NCBI GenBank assembly: GCA_047285805.1
Contig: JBJBCN010000003.1
Location: 448,001-512,000 of the forward strand
DNA length: 64,000 nucleotides
Reading direction: 5' to 3'
Source: Synechococcus sp.
Lineage (GTDB): Bacteria > Cyanobacteriota > Cyanobacteriia > PCC-6307 > Cyanobiaceae
A program made the position numbers. This document shows positions 32,627 through 44,600 of this stretch, piece by piece; position 1 is the first letter of the stretch, and every line of letters starts with the position of its first letter.

Positions 32627-35600
32627 TGAAGAAGTGCAAAAGTGAGCAACCTCGTTTAATTAATATCCCTAAACATGTTGATGCACGCGGCAATCTCTCT
32701 GTAGTTGATCCTACTACTTGTTTGCCATTCCCACTGAAAAGGGTATTTTATATTTATGATATACCGGCAATGTGTGAACGAGGAGCTCATGCGCATTATG
32801 AGCTACATCAATTTCTTTGGTGCGTGACCGGAGCTGTACAAGTTAAAACAGAGTCCTCGTCAGGTGAACTCGCTCAGTTCGTAGTTTCATTGCCATGGCA
32901 GGGCCTCTATCTTCCTCCACTGACATGGTCTAGTGAAACCGCACTTACAGGTGCTTGTACATATTTTGTGGCCGCATCAGAAGAGTACAATGAAAAAGAT
33001 TACATTAGAGATATTGATTTATTCCGAGCTTTGTCCTCATCCTAGGCCGGAAGAATATGCACGTCTCATTCTTTAAAAAGCCTCAAATTAACTCTCAATA
33101 TCGAAAAAAGTTCTATGAGTACCTAGATCAACTCATTACCGGTGATGATTCGCTAGTTTTGGGTCACTACTGTAAGGAGTTTGAAAAAGAGTTTGCTAGA
33201 ACTCTTGGTGCTTCTCATTGTAACTTTGTCTCTAATGGCTTAGATGCTCTTTCAATTGCACTGAGAGCCGTAGGTGTACAGGCTGATGATGTTGTTATTG
33301 TTCCCAACCACACTTACATTGCAACTTGGATCGCACCTCTCTCAATTGGCTGCAATTTGATAGTCGCACCTGTTTCTGAGATTGATCTATTACTTGAGCC
33401 CTCTACGATTGAGAAGTATATAACAAGCAAAGTTCGTTGTATTATTCCCGTTCACTTATATGGGAATGCGTGCCAAATGCAGAAAATCATGTGTTTGGGT
33501 GAAAAGCACTCCCTAGTTGTTGTTGAGGATGCAGCTCAGGCACATGGAGCTAGATCTGGTGACAAATATATAGGTAATTGGGGTGATGCAACATGCTTTA
33601 GTTTTTATCCAACTAAAAACTTAGGTGCTCTTGGAGAAGCGGGTGCTGTTACCACGAACGACCCTAGGATCGCATCATTTGTTCAAAGCTATAAGAACTA
33701 TGGACGCTCTTTGTCTGATCCGTCTCTTAATACTCTGCTAGGTTCAAATCATCGTGGCGATGAAATTCAGGCAGCATTCTTAACTATTAAGCTCATGGCT
33801 CTCGATAAAATCATTAAAAGGCGACACGAAATAATCCAAAGGTATGAGCAGCGTATTAATGGCTCTACACTACCTTTTAAGCTGCTTCCATATCATAATT
33901 GTCAGAGTTCTCCCCATCTAGCAGTTGTACGTACAGAGAACAAAGCAACCAGAGACTCTCTCGCCGCATATTTGCACGCTAAGCAGATAGATGCTCCAAT
34001 TCACTATAAAAGACCTTGCCACACACAGCCGTGTATTGACACACAAAGAATTTCGATCGACCAAGAGTGCAAAGAACAGGCTCTCAAGATTTCTGAGACT
34101 ATCCTCTCAATTCCAATGAGTGAAGTACATACTAATGAAGAAATCGACTATGTGATTGAGACTCTTTGCCAATATGAATCATAACCCCCTTCAGCTGATA
34201 ATCGGATTCCTTTAGCTTGGTTCCCTGAAACAACTGTATGGCATGCTACTGACATTGTTGCAACGCTTAGTTGCTGAAACCATAGAGCCTTTGCTAATTC
34301 TGATACGTGGCAAGATCACAGCTGCAGCACTAATGCGGCACCCTTCTTCAACTAAGATTATCTCAGGCTGCTTGCAATATTAGCTCTTTGGTTTTAAGTC
34401 GTTGAAGAAAGGCACCCAAGGTCCTATTAAAATAGAATCAATAATGATTCCTCCTCGCCAAAGAGAGACTTTTTTGATAGCAACTAGGTCACCTGTAATA
34501 GCCACGCTCTCAACAAAACACCTGTCAGATATGCTGCGGTCAGCACCAATTATTGCGCCTGAAATCATACTAACATATGACAATAACCTTTGTCTTTCTC
34601 CTACAAGCAAAGTCTTGATCACAGGGTGACGACCTTTGAAATACCCTTAAGCTGCAACCGCAAACTTATGAACATGATACGATGAGAATTACAAATAGTA
34701 ATCTTAATGGATCAAGTCAAGGCAATAAAACTGCTTTCAGAAGGCGGAATTGAGAGGCTCTGCTTAGCTTTGATGGACTATGACTACGATCTTTATGCGC
34801 AGGCTAAAGAGAACGAAGGGCAGTTAAACTATCTTAGATATCAAGGCAAGATAGAGTGGGCCGTTCAAAACTATCTATACACTAATCTTTATGGCTCAGC
34901 GGAATCTGTAGCCACTTCGTTAGCGAAAAAAAATAGCCTGAACAAACAAACCTCCGTTGAATCTAAGTTTCTTGAAAAAACAATTCTTCTTCTTCATAAT
35001 CCAAGTTTGGCTGCACATATCTCTGTTCTCACATCTATGCAGGAGGCTTTCTTAGACTCATTCAGATCGGACGGTCTATACATAGCCGTTCTGTTTAAAG
35101 ATGTTGAATATGCTTGGTGGAAGGACGAGATTCAATCTAGAGGATTTACTTGCATTCCTCAACGTGACTGCTCTCCATTCCAAACACTGATGGAACTACG
35201 TGACGTATACCGACCTAAGCAATATATATGGTGGGGTCCTCCCGTCTACCAGTGGCTTAGTCCTCTAATTGATCCAGGTGCTATTCATCGAAGCGTCAGC
35301 TTTAAATACGATGTTCCTCAGTCGCCGCGCTTCAATTCACATCATATTGGCTATGGAAAAAACTATGCAAGCAAAATCAGTTCGGTGGTTCCAGTTTATG
35401 GCTTTCACCAACCAATCACTCTTTCATCGATGCCAGGTGTATTACCTTCTCAGCTTCAAGAAGCTGCATCTAAGTCTCAAATGTCGTTGAGAACTAACGC
35501 TATGTCAACTCGATCAAGAATAAATATAGGCGTACTTGCACGAGCCGAAAAAGTCGCACAGCCAAGCTATCTAGATGCGATTTTACAAATACTTCATCAA

Positions 35601-41600: not shown

Positions 41601-44600
41601 ATGGTAATGTCCCATAACGTTTGCCGTCTTCAAGTAGCCAATATATTTTTTCTATGGGATGAGCATCGCCGTGCAAAATTTGATCCCGTCTTTCCTTAAG
41701 TCTCCCAATCTTCTTAGAATCATTTAGCCATAGCCCCTTTTTGGGGTGAACAATGGCATTAGTCAGATCCTTGAGACTTTCAGAAATCCGCAGACAATCG
41801 TCTTTCGAAAAACCGCTTTCGCTGAGAACATCTAATCGAGAATCAAGGTCAAAAGTATAGCACGAAAAAACTATCTCAAACTCGATCTTGTCGTGCAGTG
41901 CCGGTTGCTCAAGAAGCTTCCCGAGGTAGTAGTCAGCCAACCTTGTTGCAATATGCTCTTCTAGCGACGCAGGTATGAACGAGTTAAAAGATAGTCTTAC
42001 ATCTATGTACGGAAGTCCATAGAAATTAGGCATCAGGGGGAAGCTACGAAGGTTCCTATACCCATAGTTATGACGTTGGTAAGCCCATATTGAATCCGTT
42101 ACCATATCTCTATATAGGGACAAAGCTAAAGGCTGAGGACGCAGGCCAACTATTTCAGCCGGATTCCAGTCAGGCATTACTCCATAAACAGTTCTACTTC
42201 CTAGCAAGAAGGAATGCTTTTTCATTCCATCTCTTACCTTATCTTCAATAGACTTTAATCGCTTCTCCTGGCTCTCTTCAGATTCGGGGGTTCTAGCTAA
42301 GACCAGTGGTCGAACCTGAAGTAGCCAAGTCTCAGATTCCTCACGCTCTTGTGTAACTGCAAACTCGCAATCAATAGGCGAATCGTTGAATAGGTGAAGT
42401 AGCTCTTTGAGTAGACTTATTATTGGTGCTAAGGCCGGTAATGGCGCCAATTGGCTCTTAGAAGCCTGTTGCCATATACGACCTCCTTGCCCGCTAGTGA
42501 CAAACTCAGTATCATCTGAATCTGACCAGTTAACTACTCTATATGCTGATCCGTTCGCTGGATCGTGAGAAAAAGCAACACCGGAGCGTATTACATTCTT
42601 TAGCATCGGCTGTATTAGTACCTGATCAGCGTCATTCTCTCGACCATATGAGCTGAAAACATTATCTACCGACTCTTCTAGGTCCTTTCTCTCCACATTG
42701 GGCACTGACAGAAACGCACCAGCGTTAGAGGCGATGCGTGTGTCTTCAAGTCTGCAGCTAGACCGGACAATAAAGCTATTTGATCCATTCAAGGCCTTCA
42801 CTGCCTCATTGATCACGCTTTTCTTATTCTCTTTCCAGCTCTTTAGCGTCAATATATATGATTCCGGGACTCTCGCCGACATTAGTCGTGATCTGACGAG
42901 CTCCAGGTTGTCAGCTTTCGTAGAAAAGCTCACCATGTTTCTACTTCTTAACTCTTGCTGACCAGGCTCGAGTTAGGTATGTAGCATTTATGCATTCTAA
43001 GCTACTAACCTTTTCCTCTACATACTGCATGAATTCCTCGAATGAGTTGGGCCCTAGCTGAACTCTTAGGTCATTAACAGATCTCCACGCTGTCAAATAT
43101 CTTTCAGTGCTCATCGCAATCTCATGAGTGGCTTCCATGTAGATAACATCCTCAAAGAGTCGAGACTCCCTAAGTCTTTGCGTCAATGACTCGGTCATGC
43201 CTGATCTGCCAGATGAAACGCGTCTCACAGAAGGCTTGATGACTTTGATCTGTGCTTCAATTTCGACTAAAAGTGGGTTGGCTTCAATGAGTCGTGGGTT
43301 CCAAACAGCTGTGAAAACACCTTCTGGTTTTAAAACCCTATAAAATTCTTGTGTTGCAGTTTCAAAATCTGCCCAGTGAAAGCTTGACGCCATACTCACC
43401 CAATCACTACTTGATGACGGCAGCCCTGTATGCTCGGCAGAGCCTTTAAGCCACTGAATCTGCTTACCTGCGCTATCTAAGATCCCTGCATCTCTCATAT
43501 CATCATTTGGCTCGACAGCCGTGGAGGAATAAACACCCTTAGAGGCAACCATCCGTGTCCATATTCCAGTCCCTGCACCAATATCAGTAAAAGCAATATC
43601 TGACACCTGCTTACCTGTATATCCAATTATGGAACTGATTACCGAATCGCTGTAGTTGGGGCGGCTAGATGAGTAACTGGAGGCAAGCCCAGTGAAATCA
43701 GCATGCTTTAGCATTGTGCGATTTAACCCAACGTTCAATTGACTTTATCATTGATTCTGCGACCTTTACTGCGTTGCTCTCTGCATTGAACTCAAGCTCC
43801 CAGTTTGGATGCTTGGGTTCATCTACAGGCAGGTCCAATCCTGCAACATTGGATAATTCACCAGATCGGAAGCGTTTGTATATGTCTTTGGGATCCCTCT
43901 CTTCTAGTTTCTGGAGCGGGACCTTTAGGTACGCCTCGAAATAATTTGCAATATTCTCCCTGTTCCATGAATATACTTCTTCGAACATAGATATAGTCGC
44001 TATTATCACAACGACTCCTTGGGAGGCTAGGAGCCTGCACAGCCGCGAATAGCTTCTCGCTAGCGACAATCTCTCTGATCGCATGTGTGCATCGCCTGTG
44101 TCTGTTGATCCAAAGACCTCTCTGAGCTCGTCGCCATCGAGGCGCACCACGCATTTCCCTAGTCCAATGTAGTGATCGGCTACTAGCTTTGCCGTTGTTG
44201 ACTTTCCAGCACCTGATAATCCTGTTATCCAAATCACGAGGCCTTCCTCCTTCTCTGAACTCGGACTTGTTTCCTTCTTTGTTTTTAGTGCTTTCATGCT
44301 GTGGTTTGCCCAGGTTTTCCTGCTGTCGAATAGCTGATTGGCGCATACTAACGTCTAGCGGTGTCAAGTTAACTTTCAATCTTGGTTTGTCGCCATCTTT
44401 ATTCTTCTCTGACCCAGTGGGTGTGTTGCATAGTTGCTGTGCTTGTCGTTACTAGCATTCAAGGTTATGAGTATGTTTTACTTGGGCTTTCTCATTGATC
44501 GTGATATTAGCGTGTCTATGTGCTTAAGCCCTTTTGAGCTTTGCCTCTACGCCTTTATCCGTATTGACGCTCTTTGAACATATGACTTTCGCTTTCGAGC

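What a model noticed while it worked through the whole genome (the two positions that open the first line are those of the whole stretch)
33057..44297. Campylobacter-type phosphoramidate (MeOPN) pathway in a picocyanobacterial glycan island
A low-GC island next to thiC/transketolase carries homologues of all four enzymes that make the phosphoramidate donor 3'-phospho-cytidine-5'-diphosphoramidate in Campylobacter jejuni (Cj1418, Cj1416, Cj1417, Cj1415) in one operon with methyltransferases, a sugar aminotransferase, a glycosyltransferase-like protein and a 383-aa diverged sulfotransferase-type protein. I read it as a pathway that decorates a surface polysaccharide of this cyanobacterium with (O-methyl) phosphoramidate, with g02090 as the transferase that uses the PAPS-like donor. 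New would be P-N bond glycan chemistry in a phototroph, a possible anti-phage/anti-grazer surface modification and an unaccounted sink of N and P.
Evidence so far: Swiss-Prot best hits: g02093 771 aa = L-glutamine kinase Cj1418c, 41% over 779 aa, E 2e-190; g02091 = CTP:phosphoglutamine cytidylyltransferase Cj1416c, 34%, E 5e-37; g02092 = gamma-glutamyl-CDP-amidate hydrolase Cj1417c, 30%, E 2e-17; g02095 = cytidine diphosphoramidate kinase Cj1415c, 37%, E 5e-31; g02094 methyltransferase; all on the minus strand, contiguous, GC 0.43-0.47 vs 0.61. g02090: Pfam Sulfotransfer_1 E 0.011 only, no relative among 5.8e9 proteins by word search; a full HMMER scan of 1.8e9 representatives finds 64 distant relatives (best 33% identity, E 2e-33; call 161), and 8 of 10 of these scanned against Pfam match Sulfotransfer_3 (E 6e-5 to 2e-11, some below the cut; call 162) [...]
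(Added by a program. Inside this text positions count along the whole contig: contig position 448,001 is position 1 of the stretch shown here. "Call 12" and the like, gene names such as g00115 and contig names such as C1 are that model's own, and its searches are not shown. The text may have been shortened before it was handed on; [...] marks where a part breaks off. The agent that wrote the report below was given it as the finding of a first reader that could run no searches.)

Follow-up and report, generated by a model that had tools for sequence, protein, structure and literature searches.

The report
Phosphoramidate sugar-decoration island in picocyanobacterium
A marine picocyanobacterium carries a foreign 12-kb gene island that very probably makes the activated donor of the rare phosphorus-nitrogen sugar decoration known from Campylobacter, with a sulfotransferase-shaped enzyme as the likely attaching enzyme, though the chemistry itself is untested.

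Summary
A low-GC island (0.40-0.46 against about 0.62) lies between thiC and the transketolase gene. Its real limits are about 32626-45060.

On the minus strand six tightly packed genes form one operon:
- an APS-kinase-like kinase;
- a methyltransferase;
- a Cj1418-type glutamine kinase (NCBIfam NF004508, 973 bits, cut-off 501);
- an amidohydrolase;
- a cytidylyltransferase;
- g02090.

The first five are a cassette found in at least 834 species genomes of many phyla, so it is not Campylobacter-specific. The window's nearest relatives are marine Alphaproteobacteria and two other picocyanobacteria. In the window's family, 4 of 301 genomes carry the kinase.

g02090 has a sulfotransferase fold (Z 13.9 to CurM ST) and keeps the nucleotide-phosphate motifs. 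Its family is the commonest neighbour of the cassette:
- 34 of 83 cassette loci have such a gene, 31 of them within 300 bp.
- 18 of 43 loci picked by the g02090 motif alone have the cassette beside it.

The link is not exclusive. Three picocyanobacterial genomes have relatives of g02090 but no cassette. The host also has a housekeeping APS kinase, so plain sulfation is not excluded.

No Campylobacter-type transferase (NF058596) was found. No chemistry or RNA evidence exists.

Earlier notes of this scan describe the same pairing in at least 13 other genomes.

The parts
32626..33045 (+). FdtA/WxcM-like sugar 3,4-ketoisomerase, about 139 aa. It is the first island gene, and its ATG overlaps the thiC stop codon.
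   Evidence: Pfam FdtA, E 3e-34. The translation shows the Met at residue 35 of the longer ORF.
33057..34184 (+). DegT/DnrJ/EryC1-type sugar aminotransferase, 375 aa.
   Evidence: Pfam PF01041, E 1.3e-88. NCBIfam hits to PseC- and WecE-like models are all below their cut-offs.
34707..36032 (+). GT-B-like glycosyltransferase candidate, 441 aa.
   Evidence: Pfam Glyco_trans_1_4, E 1.2e-4, below the cut-off. The nearest Atlas clusters carry Glyco_trans_1_4 or Glycos_transf_1 (a lead only). No homologue in the 83 cassette loci.
36032..36802 (+). 256-aa protein, methyltransferase-like. This is a lead only.
   Evidence: No Pfam or NCBIfam hit. The nearest Atlas clusters are partly methyltransferase-annotated, and many have viral members.
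37133..37714 (+). 193-aa protein with a weak methyltransferase match.
   Evidence: Pfam Methyltransf_23, E 8.6e-4, below the cut-off.
38131..39282 (-). g02090: a 383-aa sulfotransferase-fold protein, the last gene of the operon and the candidate phosphoramidate transferase. Its start overlaps the stop of the upstream gene by 4 nt.
   Evidence: AF2 model: pLDDT 83.2, pTM 0.84. VIA Z 13.9 to CurM ST 4gbm, and all 50 listed chains are sulfotransferases. Family profile against the PDB: E 9.4e-15. Conserved G9/R10/G12, H23, R171 and S179. hhalign against cassette-adjacent proteins: probability 99.9%.
39279..40043 (-). Cj1416-like nucleotidyl(cytidylyl)transferase, 254 aa.
   Evidence: NTP_transf_3, E 2e-19. 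N-terminal GxGxR signature. A homologue lies in 77 of 83 cassette loci.
40040..40654 (-). Cj1417-like class-I glutamine-amidotransferase-type hydrolase. The likely start is the Met at 40624.
   Evidence: Best NCBIfam hit is NF045546 'gamma-glutamyl-CDP-amidate hydrolase', E 8.4e-28, 97.8 bits, below the cut-off of 250. Peptidase_C26, E 1.2e-19. GICRGMQ and HPE motifs are present.
40621..42936 (-). Cj1418-type L-glutamine kinase, 771 aa.
   Evidence: NF004508, 973.4 bits against a cut-off of 501. PEP-utilizers mobile domain and PPDK_N. His728 in the SHM motif is invariant in alignment A1.
42941..43738 (-). Class I SAM-dependent methyltransferase, 265 aa, the cassette member. It is the candidate O-methyltransferase of the phosphoramidate.
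   Evidence: Methyltransf_11, E 3.8e-15. A homologue lies in 72 of 83 cassette loci, usually in this position.
43698..44297 (-). Cj1415-like kinase, 199 aa, of the APS-kinase fold. It is the candidate cytidine diphosphoramidate 3'-kinase.
   Evidence: NF004041, 186.7 bits (cut-off 127). TIGR00455, 113.6 bits, below its cut-off of 138.7. The housekeeping CysC of the same genome scores the other way round.
45061..45240 (+). Decayed copy of the thiC 3' end, marking the right border of the island.
   Evidence: Direct repeat D1. Alignment to the thiC 3' end. 69-71% identity over 184 nt to the thiC of three relatives (73% over 93 nt to the fourth), with stops in all frames.
32430..32629 (+). The functional thiC 3' end, the left copy of the duplicated segment and the left border of the island.
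   Evidence: 82-84% identity to relatives' thiC.

Best explanation
A horizontally acquired island of about 12.4 kb, inserted at the 3' end of thiC, equips this picocyanobacterium to put a (probably O-methylated) phosphoramidate group on a glycan.

Proposed steps, by analogy with the C. jejuni enzymes:
1. The glutamine kinase phosphorylates the amide N of L-glutamine.
2. The cytidylyltransferase joins the product to CMP from CTP.
3. The amidohydrolase releases glutamate and leaves cytidine diphosphoramidate.
4. The APS-kinase-like enzyme adds the 3'-phosphate. The product is 3'-phospho-cytidine-5'-diphosphoramidate, a cytidine look-alike of PAPS.
5. g02090, a cytoplasmic sulfotransferase-fold enzyme that keeps the loops binding a 5'-phospho-X and a 3'-phosphate, transfers the phosphoramidate to a sugar hydroxyl.
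6. The cassette methyltransferase methylates the phosphoramidate.

The divergent + strand genes (ketoisomerase, aminotransferase, GT-B-like protein, two methyltransferase-like proteins) probably build and mount a 3-amino-3,6-dideoxyhexose-type residue of the same glycan.

Status of the parts:
- Shown here: gene content, family membership of the kinases, the fold of g02090, and the genomic linkage.
- Inferred: every enzymatic step.
- The weakest inferences: the donor used by g02090, the acceptor, and the methylation.
For: Operon anatomy: six genes lie on one strand with 4-nt overlaps or gaps (with start corrections).

Family evidence:
- NF004508 at 973 bits, over the cut-off. NF045546 is the best hit of the hydrolase.
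- NF004041 separates cassette kinases from the housekeeping CysC. All 8 cassette kinases tested score 153-209 bits, over the cut-off of 127. The housekeeping CysC scores 91 bits there and 270 bits on TIGR00455.
- Catalytic motifs are present.

Cassette conservation in 83 loci:
- kinase 64, methyltransferase 72, glutamine kinase 83, hydrolase 78, cytidylyltransferase 77;
- all five genes in 56;
- the window's order in 41.

g02090:
- Sulfotransferase fold.
- Conserved G9-R10-x-G12 and R171...S179.
- A profile of its relatives finds an ORF in 28 of 83 cassette loci, 34 of 83 after iteration. 31 of these lie within 300 bp of the cassette.
- 35 such ORFs lie in the 409 kb of flank within 3 kb of the cassette. 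None lies in the 637 kb of flank further out.
- Reverse test: of 43 metagenome loci chosen only by the g02090-family motif, 14 have the whole cassette beside the gene and 4 more have its first genes at a contig end.
- hhalign of g02090's subfamily against 11 cassette-adjacent proteins: probability 99.9%, E 5e-35.
- In the closest clade of the kinase tree (L025, L032), a sulfotransferase-like gene sits in the same slot, downstream of the cytidylyltransferase.
- No other candidate transferase was found. NF058596 (CJJ1420_fam) has no match in this genome.

Literature, passages read: Cj1415-Cj1418 make CDP-phosphoramidate 3'-phosphate, and deletion of Cj1421 or Cj1422 abolishes MeOPN (PMC11800397).
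Against: - No C. jejuni protein could be compared directly.
- The hydrolase is below its NCBIfam cut-off, and the cytidylyltransferase matches only generic models.
- 49 of 83 cassette loci have no recognisable sulfotransferase-like gene. That includes 29 of the 50 loci with at least 3 kb of flank on both sides. So the family is not the universal transferase.
- The family also occurs without the cassette. Five metagenome loci have 5 kb or more on both sides and no cassette gene. Three picocyanobacterial genomes (G041, G230, G020) have full-length relatives, lack the glutamine kinase, and have no cassette within about 9 kb.
- In the domain tree, linked and unlinked members are mixed. g02090 sits on a long branch with two proteins of unknown context.
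- Pairwise, g02090 matches its positional equivalents only in the N-terminal loop.
- The cell has a housekeeping APS kinase, so PAPS should be available.
- Generic sulfotransferase domains are common in this family of cyanobacteria: 103 of 301 genomes.
- I found no chemical evidence and no RNA run.
Confidence: 0.55

Rival explanations
1. The five-gene cassette makes the phosphoramidate donor, but g02090 is an ordinary PAPS-dependent sulfotransferase that sulfates the same glycan. The phosphoramidate is transferred by an unrecognised protein, for example one of the unassigned island proteins or a gene elsewhere.
For: - g02090 has the canonical sulfotransferase fold and both PAPS-type phosphate-binding motifs.
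- A housekeeping APS kinase is present.
- Relatives of g02090 exist in genomes and loci without the cassette.
- 49 of 83 cassette loci manage without such a gene.
Against: - No alternative transferase was found. NF058596 has no match in this genome. The other island proteins look like a glycosyltransferase and methyltransferases.
- g02090 is translationally coupled to the cytidylyltransferase gene.
- The clustering of this family at the cassette is extreme: 35 ORFs within 3 kb, none beyond.
Confidence: 0.25
2. The operon is active, but its target is not a surface polysaccharide. It could be a glycoprotein such as an S-layer or motility protein, a lipid, or a small molecule.
For: - In other bacteria the cassette lies beside flagellin genes (L037, L056, L069, L075). 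So targets differ between hosts.
- No polymerase, flippase or export gene lies in the island.
Against: - The island's other genes are sugar-nucleotide-modifying enzymes and a glycosyltransferase-like protein.
- The only characterised system decorates a capsule (PMC11800397 and PMC3907429, passages).
Confidence: 0.12
3. The island is a recently acquired, silent or decaying passenger with no phenotype.
For: - Foreign GC content.
- Specific to this genome among the congeners searched: no other same-genus genome in the sample passed the NF004508 cut-off.
- No mobility gene, and a decayed border copy of thiC.
- No RNA run was available.
Against: - All eleven ORFs are intact.
- The six operon genes keep coupled starts and stops and their catalytic motifs.
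- The first island gene is coupled to thiC.
Confidence: 0.06

Closest known systems
O-methyl phosphoramidate (MeOPN) donor pathway of Campylobacter jejuni NCTC 11168 (Cj1418 L-glutamine kinase, Cj1416 cytidylyltransferase, Cj1417 gamma-glutamyl-CDP-amidate hydrolase, Cj1415 cytidine diphosphoramidate kinase; with the unassigned methyltransferases Cj1419/Cj1420)
   Same: The same four enzyme types plus a methyltransferase in one cluster. The kinase-hydrolase-cytidylyltransferase order is kept. The predicted product is the same PAPS-like donor (PMC11800397, passages).
   Different: - The host is an oxygenic phototroph.
- The kinase gene lies first, not last, and there is one cassette methyltransferase.
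- The nearest relatives are marine Alphaproteobacteria at about 54% identity (L025 54%, L032 55%). The highest identities, 60-61%, are to Pseudomonas and Burkholderiales proteins.
I did not check this.
- No enzyme here has been assayed.
MeOPN transferases Cj1421/Cj1422 of C. jejuni (NCBIfam NF058596, CJJ1420_fam)
   Same: The role proposed for g02090: moving the phosphoramidate from the nucleotide donor to a sugar.
   Different: - g02090 and 14 relatives give no NF058596 match at E up to 0.1.
- No NF058596 match in this genome or in five other cassette-bearing genomes. No positive control was available.
- g02090 is 383 aa, against a model of 596 positions.
- That DUF2972 is the Pfam family of these proteins comes from earlier notes of this scan. 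I did not test it.
PAPS-dependent sulfotransferases of the CurM-ST / olefin-synthase-ST and tyrosylprotein sulfotransferase type (PDB 4gbm, 4gox, 3ap1, 5wri)
   Same: - Fold: Z 12.7-13.9 over 222-245 residues.
- 5'-phosphosulfate-loop position with Arg, and the 3'-phosphate Arg...Ser motif.
   Different: - 12-14% identity.
- Below Pfam's gathering scores.
- Extra C-terminal helices, residues 310-383.
- Embedded in a phosphoramidate-donor operon.
- Where CurM ST has Glu in PPELH, just after the loop, the family has Gly (PG), read from the alignment. That this Glu is the catalytic base is my recollection, not a result.
Phosphoramide substituent in the Xanthomonas campestris pv. campestris 8004 lipooligosaccharide core
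   Same: A P-N group on a cell-surface glycan outside Campylobacter (PMC8042644, passages).
   Different: It is not methylated. Its biosynthesis is not described in the passages read. No link to this cassette was tested here.

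Membership tests
C. jejuni-type phosphoramidate donor pathway | Cj1418-type L-glutamine kinase (PEP-utilising, phosphohistidine swivel domain) | tested here: met
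NF004508 equivalog, 973.4 bits against a cut-off of 501. PEP-utilizers and PPDK_N domains. The SHM histidine is invariant in A1.
C. jejuni-type phosphoramidate donor pathway | gamma-glutamyl-CDP-amidate hydrolase (Cj1417) | tested here: inconclusive
   NF045546 is the best hit (E 8.4e-28), but 97.8 bits is below the cut-off of 250. Cys and His-Glu motifs are present. The gene holds a conserved place in 78 of 83 cassettes.
C. jejuni-type phosphoramidate donor pathway | CTP:phosphoglutamine cytidylyltransferase (Cj1416) | tested here: inconclusive
   Only generic nucleotidyltransferase models match. The GxGxR motif is present. The gene holds a conserved place in 77 of 83 cassettes. The PDB holds no C. 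jejuni chain for comparison.
C. jejuni-type phosphoramidate donor pathway | A dedicated 3'-kinase (Cj1415) distinct from the housekeeping APS kinase | tested here: met
   NF004041, 186.7 bits (cut-off 127), and below the TIGR00455 cut-off. The genome's second APS kinase scores 91 bits on NF004041 and 270 bits on TIGR00455. Substrate specificity cannot be tested here.
C. jejuni-type phosphoramidate donor pathway | Direct sequence identity to the characterised C. jejuni enzymes | not tested
No C. jejuni sequence could be reached.
C. jejuni-type phosphoramidate donor pathway | A phosphoramidate (P-N) group on a glycan of the organism | not testable with these tools
   Needs 31P NMR or mass spectrometry.
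Cj1421/Cj1422 MeOPN transferases (NF058596) | Match to the family model | tested here: not met
   No match for g02090 or anywhere in the genome. The model rang in none of the 14 control genomes, so the search had no positive control.
Sulfotransferase superfamily | Sulfotransferase fold | tested here: met
   VIA Z 13.9, rmsd 4.5 A over 245 residues, to 4gbm. All 50 listed chains are sulfotransferases. Foldseek's top hits are sulfotransferases too.
Sulfotransferase superfamily | 5'-phosphosulfate-binding loop and 3'-phosphate-binding Arg...Ser motif | tested here: met
   G9, R10 and G12, and R171 and S179, are invariant or nearly so in A2/A4. They align to PRSGS and VRHP...ES of CurM ST.
Sulfotransferase superfamily | Pfam gathering score for a sulfotransferase family | tested here: not met
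   Sulfotransfer_1, 15.6 bits against 22. The family profile nevertheless hits PDB sulfotransferases at E 9.4e-15.
Sulfotransferase superfamily | Use of PAPS as donor | not testable with these tools
   This is the point at issue. It needs an enzyme assay.

The most novel reading that the evidence does not exclude
Sulfotransferase-fold proteins are a second, widespread class of phosphoramidate transferases, unrelated in sequence to Campylobacter's Cj1421/Cj1422. They use 3'-phospho-cytidine-5'-diphosphoramidate as a PAPS mimic. Through a cassette shared with SAR116-type marine Alphaproteobacteria, about one in a hundred picocyanobacterial genomes displays P-N decorated surface glycans in the sea.
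Probability: 0.45. Interest if true: 0.8.

Novelty: new variant of a known kind. Interest (0 to 1): 0.6.

Why it matters
The enzyme chemistry of phosphoramidate transfer has not been shown in vitro for any organism. In C. jejuni only gene deletions point to Cj1421/Cj1422 (PMC11800397, passages).

A small, soluble-looking sulfotransferase-fold candidate sitting in a complete donor operon gives a directly testable enzyme. It would also give a possible new reaction for a well-known fold.

For marine microbiology, it would put a P-N glycan modification on the surface of an abundant phototroph lineage. The gene would sit in a hypervariable island of the kind thought to shape phage and grazer interactions.

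Current annotation hides the pathway. On an Azospirillum plasmid the genes are named 'PEP-utilizing enzyme', 'adenylyl-sulfate kinase' and 'sulfotransferase domain-containing protein'.

The value is tempered in three ways:
- The cassette is already widespread in databases.
- Earlier notes of this scan describe the same pairing in at least 13 other genomes.
- Everything functional is inference.

Tried and rejected
- Reaching a C. jejuni sequence for direct comparison failed.
  - The 80 kept genome loci held no Campylobacterota.
  - The profile word search returned only Firmicutes-type proteins.
  - The PDB holds no C. jejuni chain of these enzymes by sequence.
  - Plasmid and phage collections gave other hosts.
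- NF058596 searches found nothing in the own genome or in five other cassette genomes. With no positive control, this is weak.
- Expression: no RNA holder was listed. The only three runs are DNA runs of one study that may be the source of the genome.
- Mobility:
  - no tRNA in window 27000-50000;
  - no integrase-like ORF among those scanned;
  - only 1 of 2.9 million viral contigs encodes a relative, at 29% identity, and one unannotated 'Bacteriophage sp.' record does. A phage origin is therefore not supported.
- Promoter- and terminator-like sites in the island are no more frequent than in shuffles. The one strong terminator (45391-45371, minus strand) belongs to the transketolase gene.
- The inserts at the same thiC-tkt site in two congeners (G255, G168) share no gene with this island.
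- The sulfotransferase-domain tree could not place g02090 with either the linked or the unlinked members, because of long branches.
- Two Raushel papers that may discuss the PAPS analogy (PMC5938747, PMC5629633) are not held. What they say is unknown to me beyond recollection.
- One paper search was badly framed and gave only cyanobacterial papers without the term. It was replaced.

Full report
**1. What is there**

The window has a sharply bounded low-GC block. The 1-kb bins from 33001 to 45000 have GC 0.403-0.464. Most of the rest of the window lies at 0.58-0.68.

On the minus strand six genes are packed with 4-nt overlaps or gaps:

| Coordinates | Length | Match |
|---|---|---|
| 44297-43698 | 199 aa | APS_kinase fold |
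| 43738-42941 | 265 aa | Methyltransf_11 |
| 42936-40621 | 771 aa | glutamine kinase type |
| 40654-40040 | about 194 aa from the Met at 40624 | Peptidase_C26/GATase |
| 40043-39279 | 254 aa | NTP_transf_3 |
| 39282-38131 | 383 aa | g02090 |

On the plus strand lie five more genes:
- an FdtA-like ketoisomerase, whose true ATG at 32626 overlaps the thiC stop codon;
- a DegT-type aminotransferase;
- a 441-aa GT-B-like protein;
- two small methyltransferase-like proteins.

To the left of the island are thiC, with its TPP riboswitch, and a full Kdo set, kdsD, kdsC, kdsB and kdsA. To the right are the transketolase gene and fabF.

**2. Borders and origin**

A 44-nt direct repeat led to a decayed copy of the thiC 3' end, about 180 nt long, at 45061-45240.
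- The copy is 69-71% identical over 184 nt to the thiC of three congeners (73% over 93 nt to the fourth). It is broken by stops in every frame.
- The functional thiC 3' end is 82-84% identical to the same congeners.

The island, about 32626-45060, was therefore inserted at the 3' end of thiC. I found no tRNA gene and no integrase-like ORF.

The thiC-tkt gap could be measured in 9 sampled genomes of the same genus:
- about 190-900 bp in five;
- 2.2-2.5 kb in two;
- 7.8 kb and 10.4 kb in two. These two inserts are high-GC and share no gene with this island.

The site is a hot spot, and this cargo is specific to this genome among the congeners searched.

**3. The donor pathway**

- The 771-aa protein scores 973 bits on NCBIfam NF004508 (cut-off 501). 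It keeps the swivel-domain histidine.
- The hydrolase's best model is NF045546, 'gamma-glutamyl-CDP-amidate hydrolase', E 8e-28. At 97.8 bits it is below the cut-off of 250. The Cys and His-Glu motifs are present.
- The cytidylyltransferase matches only generic models.
- The kinase passes NF004041 (186.7 bits, cut-off 127) and fails TIGR00455.
- The genome's second APS-kinase gene does the opposite: 91 bits on NF004041 and 270 bits on TIGR00455.
- Seven cassette kinases from other genomes behave like the island's.

So the island carries its own specialised kinase beside the housekeeping CysC.

According to passages of PMC11800397, Cj1415-Cj1418 together make CDP-phosphoramidate 3'-phosphate from glutamine, ATP and CTP. 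I could not align the island proteins with the C. jejuni proteins themselves.

**4. The cassette is widespread, not a Campylobacter speciality**

- The glutamine kinase has more than 7,600 relatives at E 1e-20 or better among the 8,000 candidates scored. The best non-self hits are 61% identical and include Pseudomonas, Burkholderiales and Gallionellales proteins.
They span Pseudomonadota, Bacillota, Bacteroidota, Acidobacteriota, Verrucomicrobiota, Chlamydiota and the non-photosynthetic cyanobacterial relatives Sericytochromatia and Obscuribacterales.
- Fourteen plasmids carry it.

In 83 loci (80 plus three picocyanobacterial ones), one search counted:

| Gene | Loci of 83 |
|---|---|
| glutamine kinase | 83 |
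| hydrolase | 78 |
| cytidylyltransferase | 77 |
| methyltransferase | 72 |
| kinase | 64 |
| all five | 56 |
| the window's exact order and strand | 41 |

Within the window's own family, 4 of 301 genomes pass the NF004508 cut-off.
- Two of the three other contigs carry housekeeping genes 50-82% identical to this genome's.
- The third (G044) is unverified.

In a quick maximum-likelihood tree, the window's kinase falls in a supported clade (SH-aLRT 95) of seven rows. The clade holds four marine Alphaproteobacteria, one of them SAR116, and two of those picocyanobacteria. This fits exchange among marine plankton.

**5. g02090**

Alone it gives only Sulfotransfer_1 at E 0.011. The evidence for the fold comes from its relatives and from a model:
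- A profile of g02090 and 27 relatives hits PDB sulfotransferases: CurM ST at E 9.4e-15, and tyrosylprotein sulfotransferases near 1e-11.
- An AlphaFold2 model built with that alignment has pLDDT 83.2 and pTM 0.84.
- Foldseek and VIA-align both return only sulfotransferases at the top. The best is Z 13.9, rmsd 4.5 A over 245 residues, to 4gbm.
- Residues 1-310 form the domain. Residues 310-383 are extra helices.
- The loop that binds the 5'-phospho-X group (G9-R10-x-G12) and the 3'-phosphate Arg171...Ser179 motif are conserved.

The protein is therefore built to hold a nucleoside 3'-phosphate 5'-phospho-X donor. That description fits both PAPS and the cytidine phosphoramidate donor.

**6. Linkage tests**

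Forward test:
- An HMM made only from g02090 and eight relatives from the unbiased scan finds an ORF in 28 of 83 cassette loci.
- A second, Sulfotransfer_1-type family adds more.
- After iteration the count is 34 of 83 loci, 31 of them within 300 bp of the cassette.
- As an internal control, 35 such ORFs lie in the 409 kb of flank within 3 kb of the cassette. None lies in the 637 kb further out.

Reverse test, on 43 metagenome loci fetched only by the family's N-terminal motif:
- 14 have the complete cassette beside the gene;
- 4 have its first genes at a contig end;
- 5 have 5 kb or more on both sides and no cassette gene;
- the rest are too short or ambiguous. Several loci are near-copies of each other.

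Profile against profile, g02090's subfamily matches 11 cassette-adjacent proteins at probability 99.9%, E 5e-35.

In the two alphaproteobacterial loci closest in the kinase tree, a sulfotransferase-like gene occupies the same slot as g02090.

**7. Evidence against an exclusive link**

- 49 of 83 cassette loci have no such gene. That includes 29 of the 50 loci with at least 3 kb of flank on both sides.
- In the window's family, full-length matches to the profile occur in five of 301 genomes. Three of these (G041, G230, G020) lack the glutamine kinase and have no cassette within about 9 kb.
- Generic sulfotransferase domains are common in these cyanobacteria: 103 of 301 genomes.
- In the domain tree, linked and unlinked members are intermixed. 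g02090 sits on a long branch with two context-less proteins.
- Pairwise, g02090 resembles its positional equivalents only in the N-terminal loop.
- PAPS should be available in this cell.

Hence the donor of g02090 is not settled.

What tips the balance toward phosphoramidate transfer is three things. g02090 is translationally coupled to the donor operon. No other transferase candidate was found. And the family clusters very strongly at cassettes.

**8. The Campylobacter transferases**

Earlier notes of this scan named NCBIfam NF058596 (CJJ1420_fam) as the Cj1421/Cj1422 family. The model's name fits cjj81176_1420, which PMC3907429 (passages) treats as a MeOPN transferase gene.
- g02090 and 14 relatives give no match at E up to 0.1.
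- Nor does the whole genome, nor five other cassette genomes.
- The model rang in no control genome, so there was no positive control.

g02090 is therefore not a member of that family by sequence. Whether the two families share a fold could not be tested.

**9. Literature**

- A 2019 review states that these capsule P-N groups were known only from Campylobacter (PMC6429109, passages).
- A phosphoramide substituent is known in the Xanthomonas campestris LOS core (PMC8042644, passages).
- A preprint reports a MeOPN-like cluster in Borg elements (10.1101/2024.11.05.622173, passages).
- Searches of the held library gave the following:
  - 0 papers with 'MeOPN' and 'sulfotransferase';
  - 0 papers with 'phosphoramidate', 'sulfotransferase' and 'glutamine kinase';
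  - 2 papers with 'MeOPN' and 'cyanobacteri', both about Campylobacter phages or phage resistance in general, judged from their listings;
  - 1 paper with 'glutamine kinase' and 'Synechococcus', the 2019 review.
- Subscription papers are not covered. These include the two Raushel papers I could not open.

**10. Verdict**

The donor-pathway reading is well supported by family membership and by conserved gene order. The transferase role of g02090 is the best available explanation, at about 0.55, but sulfation is a live rival.

The thing is a new variant of a known kind: a known donor pathway joined to a candidate transferase of a different fold family, in a phototroph. It matches a pattern that earlier notes of this scan report from at least 13 other genomes.

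Noticed in passing
window 45061-45240 and 32430-32629: A decayed duplicate, about 180 nt long, of the thiC 3' end flanks the island. It is a footprint of insertion at the end of thiC, yet the island has no integrase or tRNA. The thiC-tkt junction is a variable hot spot in congeners, with gaps from 190 bp to 10.4 kb.
   Followed up: yes
window 31121-31217 (+): A TPP riboswitch (RF00059, 74.8 bits) lies upstream of thiC. It overlaps the listed GTG start at 31202, so the real thiC start is probably further downstream.
   Followed up: no
window 17539-19760 (-): Adjacent genes with Methyltransf_33 (histidine-specific methyltransferase, E 2e-103) and FGE-sulfatase+DinB_2 domains. They look like an EgtD/EgtB ergothioneine pair. 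The names are my recollection.
   Followed up: no
window 26746-31089: A complete Kdo set lies just left of thiC: SIS+CBS isomerase, HAD phosphatase, kdsB and kdsA. It is interrupted by a GT8-like ORF and a 159-aa ORF without family, in DNA of slightly lowered GC (0.54-0.60).
   Followed up: partly
L037 13792-15390, L056 6426-8000, L069 2088-4481, L075 1-1998: In four bacteria the phosphoramidate cassette lies next to flagellin genes. This suggests flagellin glycans as targets in those hosts.
   Followed up: partly
L148 (Azospirillum lipoferum 4B plasmid AZO_p6) 4638-7178: The cassette's 'adenylyl-sulfate kinase' is annotated as an 846-aa protein, so it carries a large extra N-terminal part. 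Two 'sulfotransferase domain-containing' genes lie downstream. Fourteen plasmids in all carry the glutamine kinase.
   Followed up: no
cassette loci L014-L093 (e.g. L024 2621-4191): Two distinct methyltransferase types occupy the slot before the glutamine kinase. One is about 50-61% identical to the window's, the other about 31-36%. L024 has both, recalling the Cj1419/Cj1420 pair of C. jejuni.
   Followed up: no
L097, L102, L103, L111, L121, L123, L125, L136: A low-GC (0.26-0.31) marine subfamily of proteins of about 735 aa carries the g02090-type domain. Where flanks are long, no phosphoramidate cassette lies within 10 kb. Their donor is unknown.
   Followed up: partly
window 34707-36802: The GT-B-like protein and the 256-aa protein have their nearest ESM-Atlas clusters partly among Uroviricota (phage) sequences. 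This hints that this half of the island is related to phage-borne glycan genes. It is a lead only.
   Followed up: no
picocyanobacterial genomes G213, G252, G091 and others: Many genomes of this family encode several 500-750-aa proteins with a generic sulfotransferase domain, up to six per genome. This points to widespread sulfation in this group.
   Followed up: no
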